Positions 1,114 to 1,403 of a DNA stretch of 1,403 nt are shown here, piece by piece. The DNA comes from Escherichia coli (lineage in GTDB: Bacteria > Pseudomonadota > Gammaproteobacteria > Enterobacterales > Enterobacteriaceae). A program made the position numbers and the translations under genes. The number at the start of each line of letters is the position of its first letter. The first letter of the stretch is position 1. The notes under the pieces are model-generated. The model was given only the letters and a program-made list of their open reading frames with translations, was not told the origin of the DNA and ran no database searches. The DNA lies in NCBI RefSeq assembly GCF_003334355.1, contig NZ_QOWP01000088.1; one strand, 5' to 3'.

Positions 1114-1373
1114 CACAAGGTCAGCCAATCTGACGAGGTGCTGAAAAAAAGTTAACGTCCTGGTAGGTGCAGGTGACTTCAGAAGATGGCAAAACAGGTA
1201 AGACCGCAGGCAGGATACACCGAGAGGTAACAAGGGCAAGTTAGCCCGTAGAGGATGATTGGTACCTGCCTGGCGGATTTCATCATGGTTCGGGATAAAA
1301 ATCCCATCAGAAACCGGATATATGGCTGCACCTACCCGTTTTATTACATAACTGAAGAAAGCATTGCATTCCG
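1114..1373 (+). ncRNA. Candidate bridge RNA / seekRNA of the IS110-family element; strand and exact ends uncertain
   Basis: Seen in sequence: no ORF in the track; 11-bp long-range helix 1162-1172 (GGTAGGTGCAG) with 1326-1336 (CTGCACCTACC); stem 1204-1214 with 1265-1276 (8 bp, one bulged G, then 3 bp) enclosing a 50-nt internal loop with a small hairpin 1234-1237/1244-1247; hairpin 1292-1296/1301-1305 with an AAAA loop; U-rich tract 1339-1345 after the 3' strand of the long-range helix. Established knowledge: IS1111-type elements encode the guide RNA in the right end. No clear sigma70 promoter was found. Confidence 0.45.
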
Positions 1374-1384
1374 GGAGCGTCCAT
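1374..1384. repeat. Right subterminal inverted repeat (IRR), GGAGCGTCCAT
   Basis: Exact reverse complement of 9-19. A perfect 11-bp inverted pair at both ends of a 1.4-kb window is unlikely by chance. Confidence 0.7.
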
Positions 1385-1403
1385 ATATGTTACCTCGCGC
1401 CCG

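What the first reader, a model, noticed from the sequence alone, without database searches (positions are those of the whole stretch)
1224..1396. Two segments of the candidate RNA are complementary to adjacent DNA at the right terminus
GAGGTAACA at 1224-1232 is the exact reverse complement of TGTTACCTC at 1388-1396 (9 nt). ATATATGG at 1318-1325 is the exact reverse complement of CCATATAT at 1381-1388 (8 nt). The two DNA sites abut and span the outer edge of IRR and the bases just beyond it. For a ~260-nt region against ~25 nt of terminus, a 9-mer match is expected about 0.03-0.1 times by chance and an 8-mer about 0.1-0.4 times, so two adjacent matches are suggestive but not conclusive. This is the pattern expected for donor-guide segments pairing with the element end. 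The alternative is intramolecular pairing if the transcript extends to 1396.
Basis: seen in the sequence. Interest (0 to 1): 0.7.

Follow-up and report, generated by a model that had tools for sequence, protein, structure and literature searches.

The report
Guide RNA segments of insertion sequence ISEc81
The two matches are real and belong to the guide ("bridge" or "seek") RNA of a known E. coli jumping gene, ISEc81: one segment reads the chromosomal target next to the element and the other reads the element's own right end, so this is an ordinary example of a mechanism described in 2024.

Summary
Both complementarities exist exactly as stated (9 nt 1224-1232/1388-1396; 8 nt 1318-1325/1381-1388). 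Together they occur in about 0.1% of shuffles. The window is an isoform of ISfinder ISEc81, an IS1111-group member of the IS110 family (transposase 98% identical). Its 3' non-coding region encodes a bridge RNA/seekRNA.

Empty-site comparison places the element's right end at 1386-1388, so 1389-1396 is target DNA, not element.

- Segment 1224-1232 (extended: 1221-1232, 11/12) is therefore the right TARGET guide. It sits in the same alignment columns as the experimentally validated top-strand match of ISEc11, and it changes with the right flank in about 20 relatives.
- Segment 1318-1325 lies in the left DONOR guide block. In 14 of 15 aligned relatives and 8 of 8 independent ones, this block matches the right end in the same sense, so it pairs with the bottom strand (window 1318-1324 = 1383-1389).

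The other two guides are also present: left target guide about 1253-1259 (weak) and right donor guide 1277-1283.

Verdict: observation confirmed, interpretation partly right, biology already known. Donor-guide function in IS1111 elements rests on covariation, not experiment.

The parts
2..1387 (+). Insertion sequence, isoform of ISEc81 (IS110 family, IS1111 group), 1386 bp. The crossover is ambiguous within A1/T2 and A1387/T1388, so 3-1388 is equally possible.
   Evidence: Empty yegH-asmA site in E. coli 042 reads ACAGGG-AT-GTTACC, against the occupied ACAGGA-AT-AATGAG...CCATAT-AT-GTTACC. A second site type lies in an IS66-family element. The 7-nt left and 3-nt right extension convention is from PMC11187229. 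The transposase is 335/341 identical to ISEc81.
9..19 (+). Left subterminal inverted repeat (ATGGACGCTCC)
   Evidence: Perfect 11-nt inverted repeat with 1374-1384 (I5). Same motif and position in relatives.
88..1113 (+). Transposase gene (341 aa, DEDD/RuvC-like domain plus Transposase_20 domain)
   Evidence: Pfam PF01548 and PF02371. NCBIfam NF033542 'IS110 family RNA-guided transposase', 358 bits against a cut-off of 140.
1162..1343 (+). Bridge RNA / long seekRNA region. An outer helix encloses a target-binding stem-loop and a donor-binding multiloop.
   Evidence: A covariance model built without the window hits 1170-1343 full-length, 101 bits, E about 2e-29. Consensus fold: 95.5% of cells paired, 23 of 33 pairs with compensatory change, 0/500 shuffles reach this.
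1162..1172 (+). Outer helix, 5' arm (GGTAGGTGCAG); pairs with 1326-1336
   Evidence: 11/11 complementary (I8). A helix in the same position with different sequence occurs in relatives.
1207..1214 (+). Helix closing the target-binding loop, 5' arm; pairs with 1265-1272
   Evidence: 8/8 complementary (I24). All 8 pairs show compensatory changes across 16 elements (helix 3).
1221..1232 (+). Right target guide (RTG, the seekRNA 'T' match).
   Evidence: 11 of 12 Watson-Crick pairs. Same alignment columns as ISEc11 CAGTATTT, which matches its published target. Own versus other junction: 0/20000 permutations. IS4321, ISPsy16 and L032 in the independent set. Re-targeted in ISYen1.
1234..1247 (+). Capping hairpin of the target-binding loop (GGGC-aagtta-GCCC)
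   Evidence: Conserved and covarying hairpin (helix 5).
1253..1259 (+). Left target guide (LTG, the seekRNA 'B' match), weak in this element. [quoted passage not shown]
   Evidence: Position inferred from family alignment columns, where relatives show 8-12 nt same-sense matches to their left flank (0/20000). In the window, 5 Watson-Crick pairs in a row with the empty target, or 7 pairs including 2 G.T with the occupied junction.
1265..1272 (+). Helix closing the target-binding loop, 3' arm
   Evidence: As for 1207-1214.
1277..1283 (+). Right donor guide (RDG). [quoted passage not shown]
   Evidence: The block covaries with the left-end extension in relatives: GAC/GTC, AAG/CTT, GAA/TTC, GTA/TAC, 36/20000 permutations. 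It is a perfect complement in ISYen1.
1287..1315 (+). Stem-loop between the two donor guides (GGTT/AACC and GGGAT/ATCCC)
   Evidence: Helices 6 and 7, 100% paired with compensatory changes.
1318..1324 (+). Left donor guide (LDG).
   Evidence: The RNA motif GGAT-NNNN repeats CCAT-NNNN of the right end in 15/15 aligned elements (0/20000). The same-sense reading beats the reverse-complement reading in 14/15. 8/8 in the independent set. ISKpn4, ISPst6 and ISPa11 sequences in PMC11187229 Suppl. Table 1 follow the rule.
1326..1336 (+). Outer helix, 3' arm (CTGCACCTACC)
   Evidence: As for 1162-1172.
1364..1369 (+). TTGCAT, candidate -35 of a promoter completed only in the excised circle (16-nt spacer, then TATAAT from T1386-A-T plus A-A-T of the left end)
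   Evidence: Sequence reconstruction. Junction promoters were shown for ISEc11 and ISEc21 (PMC11187229). Not tested for this element.
1374..1384 (+). Right subterminal inverted repeat (GGAGCGTCCAT)
   Evidence: I5.
1383..1389 (-). DNA site of the left donor guide: bottom strand of the right end, from the last 2 nt of the repeat through the terminal ATAT to the first flank base
1388..1399 (+). DNA site of the right target guide: top strand of the target's right half (TGTTACCTCGCG). Flanking DNA, not element.
   Evidence: Present in empty sites. Conserved as TGTTACCTC at all three site types.

Best explanation
The window is a copy of ISEc81, an IS1111-group insertion sequence. Its 3' non-coding region (about 1162-1343) is transcribed with the transposase gene and folds into a bridge RNA, also called seekRNA. 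The transposase uses this RNA to choose DNA by base pairing.

Shown here: the element boundaries, the conserved covarying RNA fold, and the covariation of each guide block with its own DNA partner.

Shown by others for the homologous ISEc11 RNA: the RNA binds the transposase, is essential, and its two target matches are programmable.

Inferred: that this copy's RNA is made and used, and that the two donor guides act by RNA-DNA pairing.
For: Identity: Pfam and NCBIfam hits. 98% identity to ISEc81. 11-nt subterminal inverted repeats.

Boundaries: empty-site comparisons at two kinds of site. Three site types share only ...GG[A/G]A(T)/TGTTACCTC.

RNA: leave-one-out covariance model, 101 bits. Consensus fold with 23 compensatory pairs, 0/500 shuffles, slid controls 34-46% paired against 95.5%. 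Outer helix conserved in position.

Guides: recurrent matches at fixed distances from the right repeat in 13 relatives. Own versus other junction permutations: RTG 0/20000, LTG 0/20000, LDG 0/20000, RDG 36/20000. Independent set of 8 elements not used to derive the rule: LDG same-sense 8/8.

ISEc11 blocks reproduce its published, experimentally reprogrammed target GTGAAAATACTG in the same columns (PMC11187229). The IS4321 block gives TTCCGTTTTCTGAGACG right after its end. ISYen1 changed only the RTG block, together with its right flank.

Strand assignments equal those of IS621: LTG and LDG bottom strand, RTG and RDG top strand (PMC11208160). The 5'/3' order is reversed, as reported for IS1111 seekRNAs. 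Donor nucleotides in a multiloop were predicted for IS1111 orthologues.
Against: No expression or binding data for this element.

The left target guide is weak here (5-7 pairs).

For ISEc11 the short 82-nt seekRNA, which cannot reach the donor-guide block about 60 nt further 3', supported transposition at least as well as the long form. So donor guides may be dispensable or accessory in IS1111 elements, and their role is supported only by covariation.

In this element, and in ISYen1, the sequence does not discriminate between the two strand readings of 1318-1325 (8 against 7 nt here; 7/8 each in ISYen1). The strand assignment rests on more distant relatives.

Close relatives (Kluyvera, 96% aa) carry two uncompensated changes in the outer helix.

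The RDG block overlaps a predicted intramolecular helix (GAUGG 1185-1189 with CAUC 1281-1284), so both cannot form at once.
Confidence: 0.85

Rival explanations
1. [quoted passage not shown]
For: Exact 9-nt and 8-nt complementarity, abutting at T1388.
Against: 1389-1396 is present in empty sites and so is not part of the donor. The homologous block in ISEc11 is an experimentally programmable target match. For 1318-1325, the reverse-complement reading gives only 3-6 nt in 14 of 15 relatives, against 5-9 nt for the same-sense reading, and 0 of 7 non-palindromic independent elements show it. The GG that pairs with the CC of the repeat is absent from most relatives (AAAACUGCA instead).
Confidence: 0.04
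2. Intramolecular RNA helices: a transcript reading through the right end into the flank folds back, so that 1224-1232 and 1318-1325 pair with 1381-1396 within the RNA.
For: Complementarity alone cannot distinguish RNA-RNA from RNA-DNA pairing. Read-through from the integrated copy is conceivable.
Against: The flank is absent from the excised circle, the form in which a strong promoter is assembled (PMC11187229). The minimum-energy fold of 1114-1403 does not use these pairs. Flank sequence is chosen by insertion, so its match to the guide reflects target selection. Transposase-bound RNAs of ISEc11, ISKpn4 and ISPa11 map within the non-coding region.
Confidence: 0.03
3. The same-sense identity between 1318-1324 and 1383-1389 is a DNA-level direct repeat (for example a second protein-binding copy of the end) and not an RNA guide. 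Only the target guides work through RNA.
For: The short ISEc11 seekRNA lacking this block supports transposition. IS1111 elements have long subterminal repeats that could give protein-based end recognition. The authors of PMC11187229 state that end recognition may differ from IS110.
Against: The block sits in a fixed place in a conserved, covarying RNA fold, directly next to the outer helix. Its partner block (RDG) is antisense to the left end. Together they reproduce the LDG-bottom / RDG-top geometry solved for IS621. Durrant et al. predicted donor-binding nucleotides in IS1111 multiloops.
Confidence: 0.07
4. Chance complementarity with no function.
For: Single matches of 8-9 nt occur in 2-7% of shuffles.
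Against: Both together occur in 0.1% of shuffles. The same relationships recur in more than 20 diverged elements with different sequences.
Confidence: 0.01

Closest known systems
ISEc81 (ISfinder; IS110 family, IS1111 group)
   Same: Transposase 335/341 identical. Same length class, subterminal repeats and 3' non-coding region. The window is an isoform of this catalogued element.
   Different: Six amino-acid substitutions. I had no access to the ISfinder DNA entry, so the listed ends and target could not be compared.
ISEc11 seekRNA (Siddiquee et al. 2024, PMC11187229)
   Same: Same RNA family: one covariance model hits both. Same order of matches, with the top-strand match 5' of the bottom-strand match and the two overlapping at the insertion point. 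The window's 1221-1232 occupies the columns of ISEc11's validated T match.
   Different: 42% aa identity. Different target (GTGAAAATACTG against ...GGGA/TGTTACCTC). ISEc11 has a 4-nt overlap at the junctions, against 1-2 nt here. ISEc11's left target match is strong (9 nt) and the window's is weak (about 5 nt).
IS621 bridge RNA (Durrant et al. 2024, PMC11208160; Hiraizumi et al. 2024, PMC11208158)
   Same: Four guides with the same strand logic: left guides pair with the bottom strand, right guides with the top strand. Target guides sit in an internal loop capped by a hairpin. The RNA recognises both the target and the element's own joined ends.
   Different: The RNA is encoded at the 3' end instead of the 5' end. 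The order within each loop is reversed (right guide 5', left guide 3'). The donor guides lie in a three-way multiloop, not an internal loop. Long subterminal repeats are present. The RDG does not reach the crossover bases. No top-strand handshake extension is seen next to the RTG (A1233 faces A1387). Rfam 15 has no model that detects this RNA.

Membership tests
IS110 family, IS1111 group insertion sequence | DEDD (RuvC-like) transposase with a C-terminal Transposase_20 domain | tested here: met
   PF01548 (1e-14) and PF02371 (4e-24). NF033542, 358 bits against a cut-off of 140.
IS110 family, IS1111 group insertion sequence | Subterminal inverted repeats of 7-17 bp with short terminal extensions | tested here: met
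   11-nt perfect repeats at 9-19 and 1374-1384, with 6-8 nt and 2-4 nt beyond them.
IS110 family, IS1111 group insertion sequence | Long non-coding region downstream of the transposase gene | tested here: met
   About 275 nt between the stop codon (1113) and the end (1387/1388), against 87 nt upstream.
IS110 family, IS1111 group insertion sequence | Orientation- and site-specific insertion without a real target duplication | tested here: met
   Three site types share ...GG[A/G]A(T) | TGTTACCTC. At most the dinucleotide AT is shared by both junctions.
IS110 family, IS1111 group insertion sequence | Excised circular intermediate with a promoter assembled at the junction | not testable with these tools
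   Sequence only: joining the ends gives TTGCAT-16 nt-TATAAT. Shown experimentally for ISEc11, not for this element.
Bridge RNA / seekRNA | Conserved structured RNA encoded in the element's long non-coding end | tested here: met
   Leave-one-out covariance model, 101 bits. 23 compensatory pairs, 0/500 shuffles.
Bridge RNA / seekRNA | Loop with two segments pairing with opposite strands of the target, overlapping at the insertion point | tested here: met
   [quoted passage not shown] They overlap at T-G. Both blocks covary with the flanks across relatives.
Bridge RNA / seekRNA | Donor-binding segments pairing with the element's two ends (bridge RNA definition) | tested here: met
   The LDG and RDG blocks covary with the right and left ends. 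This is sequence evidence only. Their requirement in IS1111 elements is not established.
Bridge RNA / seekRNA | RNA is expressed, binds the transposase and is required for transposition | not testable with these tools
   Shown for ISEc11, ISKpn4, ISPa11 and ISPst6, not for ISEc81.

The most novel reading that the evidence does not exclude
In this clade of IS1111 bridge RNAs, the right donor guide may be held in an intramolecular helix by a built-in mimic of the element's own left end. The RNA segment 1185-1189, GAUGG, has the sequence of left-end positions -5 to -2 and pairs with the CAUC part of the guide. Donor recognition would then require strand displacement of this decoy. Such a switch could separate the short target-only RNA from the long donor-competent form, and could explain why the short ISEc11 seekRNA works without donor guides. 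Three-way covariation (decoy, guide, left end) is seen in L034 and L035, but ISEc11 itself departs from it.
Probability: 0.12. Interest if true: 0.45.

Novelty: already known. Interest (0 to 1): 0.15.

Why it matters
It matters little as a discovery. RNA-guided target and donor recognition by IS110/IS1111 elements was published in 2024, the element is catalogued as ISEc81, and RefSeq already calls its protein an RNA-guided transposase.

The practical value is in three points:
- A full four-guide map, with strands and coordinates, for a clade of IS1111 elements for which Rfam has no model.
- A caution that palindromic ends such as ATATAT make a guide look complementary to the wrong strand.
- A reminder that a site-specific element carries conserved flanks, so empty sites are needed before calling a sequence an 'element end'.

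The covariation of the donor blocks also bears on an open point. Siddiquee et al. found the short seekRNA sufficient, yet the donor-guide blocks are under clear selection.

Tried and rejected
- Rfam scan of the window at E up to 1: only a chance miRNA hit inside the transposase gene, and no bridge-RNA family.
- Close relatives (Kluyvera and Citrobacter, 96% aa; 176 E. coli genomes at 99% or more) gave no covariation because they share target and guides.
- The plasmid fragment L009 looked like a natural variant of the donor guide (ATATCTCG) but is a decayed, truncated copy with an 8-nt deletion. I did not use it.
- Plasmid tblastn gave nothing between 52% and 95% identity. ISYen1 (68%) was recovered only through the ISfinder protein set in the supplement of PMC11187229.
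- My first idea that AGATGG (1184-1189), identical to 7-12, was a donor guide was dropped. The consensus fold places it in a helix with the CAUC of the RDG block.
- RNAalifold missed the outer helix because the 5' ends were aligned out of register, so I checked it per element instead (the script stopped at L034 after 11 elements).
- The IS66-family empty sites are only about 82% identical to the occupied copy and read GGAA-GTTACC, one base short, so they fix the right boundary but not the exact crossover.
- The extents of the 82-nt and 154-nt ISEc11 RNAs could not be recovered, because the colour marking of Suppl. Table 1 is lost in the text copy.

Full report
**Observation.** The window reads GAGGTAACA at 1224-1232 and TGTTACCTC at 1388-1396, and ATATATGG at 1318-1325 and CCATATAT at 1381-1388. 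Both pairs are exact reverse complements. The first extends to 12 nt with one mismatch (1221-1232 / 1388-1399; I6). In 5000 dinucleotide-preserving shuffles of the 260-nt non-coding region against 1374-1403, a complementary 9-mer or longer occurred in 2.0%, an 8-mer or longer in 7.1%, and a 9-mer plus an abutting 8-mer in 0.1%.

**What the window is.** ORF 88-1113 encodes a 341-aa protein with the DEDD_Tnp_IS110 and Transposase_20 domains. It matches NCBIfam NF033542, 'IS110 family RNA-guided transposase', at 358 bits. It is 335/341 identical to the ISfinder transposase of ISEc81, found in the source data of PMC11187229. Perfect 11-nt inverted repeats lie at 9-19 and 1374-1384. The long non-coding region is downstream of the gene. 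These are the marks of the IS1111 group (PMC11187229; PMC11208160). Copies at 99% identity or more are present in 176 of 5426 complete E. coli genomes.

**Where the element ends.** All copies match the window up to its edges, because the element is site-specific. I therefore compared occupied and empty sites.
- At yegH-asmA, E. coli 042 reads ...TTTTACAGGG-AT-GTTACCTCGCGCCCG. The occupied site reads ...ACAGGA-AT-AATGAG[repeat]...[repeat]AT-AT-GTTACCTCGCGCCCG.
- A second site type, inside an IS66-family element, shares only ...CCGGAAT / TGTTACCTC with the first. Related uninterrupted IS66 copies read CCGGAA-GTTACCTC.
- Kluyvera copies sit in the same repeat as the E. coli chromosomal copies.

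The element is 1386 bp: 2-1387 by the convention of PMC11187229 (7-nt left and 3-nt right extension), or 3-1388. GTTACCTC (1389-1396) is target DNA. This alone shows that the 9-nt match cannot be a donor guide.

**The RNA.** I collected relatives at 40-52% amino-acid identity from species-representative genomes and plasmids and located their subterminal repeats. Their 3' non-coding regions align with the window. The consensus fold has 33 pairs, 95.5% of cells paired and 23 pairs with compensatory changes. None of 500 column shuffles reaches these values, and sliding the partners by 1-3 columns drops pairing to 34-46%. An outer helix (window 1162-1172/1326-1336, 11/11) is kept in position with different sequences. 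A covariance model built from 15 relatives without the window hits window 1170-1343 full-length at 101 bits, E about 2e-29. It also detects IS4321, IS5708, ISPsy16 and others. Rfam 15 has no family that detects this RNA.

**Four guide blocks.** Exact matches between each element's own RNA and its own junctions recur at fixed distances upstream of the right repeat:

| Distance upstream of right repeat | Pairing | Match length | DNA partner |
|---|---|---|---|
| about 160 nt | complementary to the top strand | 7-9 nt | right flank, positions +4 to +12 |
| about 135 nt | identical to the top strand | 9-12 nt | left flank |
| about 105 nt | complementary to the top strand | 7 nt | left-end extension |
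| about 65 nt | identical to the top strand | 6-9 nt | last 2 nt of the repeat plus the following 4-5 nt |

Scoring each block against its own junction and against every other element's junction, then permuting, gave 0/20000 for the first, second and fourth blocks and 36/20000 for the third.

In the fold, the first two blocks are the two strands of an internal loop, between an 8-bp helix in which every pair covaries and a capping hairpin. The last two blocks flank a second stem-loop, inside the multiloop closed by the outer helix.

The strand logic is that of IS621: LTG and LDG pair with the bottom strand, RTG and RDG with the top strand (PMC11208160). The 5'/3' order is reversed, as Siddiquee et al. 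reported for IS1111 seekRNAs. The donor nucleotides sit in a multiloop, as Durrant et al. predicted for IS1111 orthologues.

1224-1232 lies in the first block, so it is the right target guide.
- In ISEc11 the same columns hold CAGTATTT, and the second block holds GTGAAAATA. Together they reproduce its published target GTGAAAATACTG. Those matches were validated by reprogramming.
- In IS4321 the block gives TTCCGTTTT, followed in the DNA by CTGAGACG.
- In ISYen1 (68% aa identity) the other three blocks are unchanged. This block reads GAGCCGC and the right flank reads GCGGCTC. That is natural re-targeting of one half-site.

1318-1325 lies in the fourth block. The RNA motif GGAT-NNNN repeats the CCAT-NNNN of the right end in the same sense in every element: ATAT, GTA?, CTAT, ACAC, ATAG, ACAA, ATAA, and GGAC/CCAC in L049. 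The same-sense match is longer than the reverse-complement match in 14 of 15 elements. The window is the exception (7 against 8) because ATATAT is its own reverse complement and a GG happens to face the CC of the repeat.

In eight elements not used to derive the rule, the same-sense match (6-9 nt) lies directly after the right repeat in all eight. A reverse-complement match appears only in L019, whose end is also ATATAT. ISKpn4, ISPst6 and ISPa11 follow the rule in the sequences printed in Suppl. Table 1 of PMC11187229.

The functional pairing is therefore most likely 1318-1324 with the bottom strand of 1383-1389.

[quoted passage not shown] It is a perfect complement in ISYen1. [quoted passage not shown] This fits the site comparison, in which only GG[A/G]AT is shared on the left while 9-12 nt are shared on the right.

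**Caveats.**
- There are no expression data for this element.
- For ISEc11, the 82-nt seekRNA supported transposition better than the long form (42% against 15%). An 82-nt RNA holding both target matches cannot reach the donor block about 60 nt further 3'. The donor guides may therefore be accessory in IS1111 elements, and their function rests on covariation and on analogy with IS621.
- The authors of PMC11187229 say explicitly that end recognition may differ between the two groups.
- The RDG block overlaps a predicted helix with GAUGG (1185-1189), so the two pairings exclude each other.
- The strand assignment for 1318-1325 cannot be made from this element or from ISYen1 alone.

**Comparison and verdict.** This is a known element (ISEc81) of a known group (IS1111), using a known mechanism (bridge RNA / seekRNA, 2024). 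The finding is real. Its interpretation is right in kind but wrong in two details, the role of the first segment and the strand of the second. Novelty: already known. Interest is low.

Noticed in passing
L006:276-419 (empty site); insertion point corresponds to window 1-2 / 1387-1388: The chromosomal target is the loop of the second hairpin (GGGCGCG-TTTTACAGGGA|TGTTACCT-CGCGCCC) of a repeat of about 150 nt, present about 3 times per E. coli genome. The repeat resembles the Rfam TwoAYGGAY RNA motif (RF01731): 31.5 bits, below the gathering score of 43, E 0.002-0.05. The ISYen1 flanks also form a hairpin, CCGCGCC-AGGGA|T..G-GGCGCGG.
   Followed up: partly
window 1364-1388 joined to 3-8: Joining the ends as in an excised circle creates a near-consensus promoter, TTGCAT-16 nt-TATAAT, pointing into the transposase gene. 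The integrated copy has TATGTT at the -10 position.
   Followed up: partly
window 1185-1189 and 1280-1284; alignment A1 columns 35-40 / 137-142: A conserved helix pairs GAUGG with the CAUC part of the right donor guide. GAUGG has the same sequence as left-end positions -5 to -2. Three-way covariation (RNA 5' strand, guide, left end) is seen in L034 and L035, but ISEc11 follows the left end and not the helix. It could be a decoy or switch.
   Followed up: partly
L022, L023, L024, L025, L031, L035, L040 (left and right junctions): In these relatives the left target guide block runs 3-4 nt into the element's left end (...AATG), so it matches the occupied junction. The left donor guide block matches the inferred circle junction (8 nt) better than the integrated right junction (6-7 nt). 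Empty sites for these elements were not available.
   Followed up: partly
L051:801-2180 (Yersinia enterocolitica, ISYen1): ISYen1 (231/341 aa identical) keeps the left target guide, both donor guide blocks and the left flank motif AGGGAT. It has a different right target guide and right flank, so one half-site was naturally re-targeted.
   Followed up: yes
L004:1501-2829 and L005:1501-2467 (E. coli plasmids): A copy of the element is inserted inside an IS66-family element, between its accessory genes, at CCGGAAT/TGTTACCTC. In pSTEC299_1 the copy is 5'-truncated (it starts at window position 431).
   Followed up: partly
L009:2001-2349 (plasmid pFII-FIB): A decayed 3' fragment of a related element (93% identity over window 1013-1361). 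It has a mutated donor-guide block (ATATCTCG), an 8-nt deletion before the right repeat and a non-matching right flank.
   Followed up: no
L011, L012, L014 (Kluyvera genomosp. 3); window 1168 and 1172: Kluyvera copies carry two uncompensated changes in the 5' arm of the outer helix (GGTAGGCGCAA against GGTAGGTGCAG). L014 also has T to C at the position of window 1388.
   Followed up: no
window:88-1110 protein, residues 130-253: Weak sub-threshold similarity to the NCBIfam model for the TIGR-Tas RNA-guided endonuclease (NF052498, 31.8 bits against a cut-off of 100).
   Followed up: no
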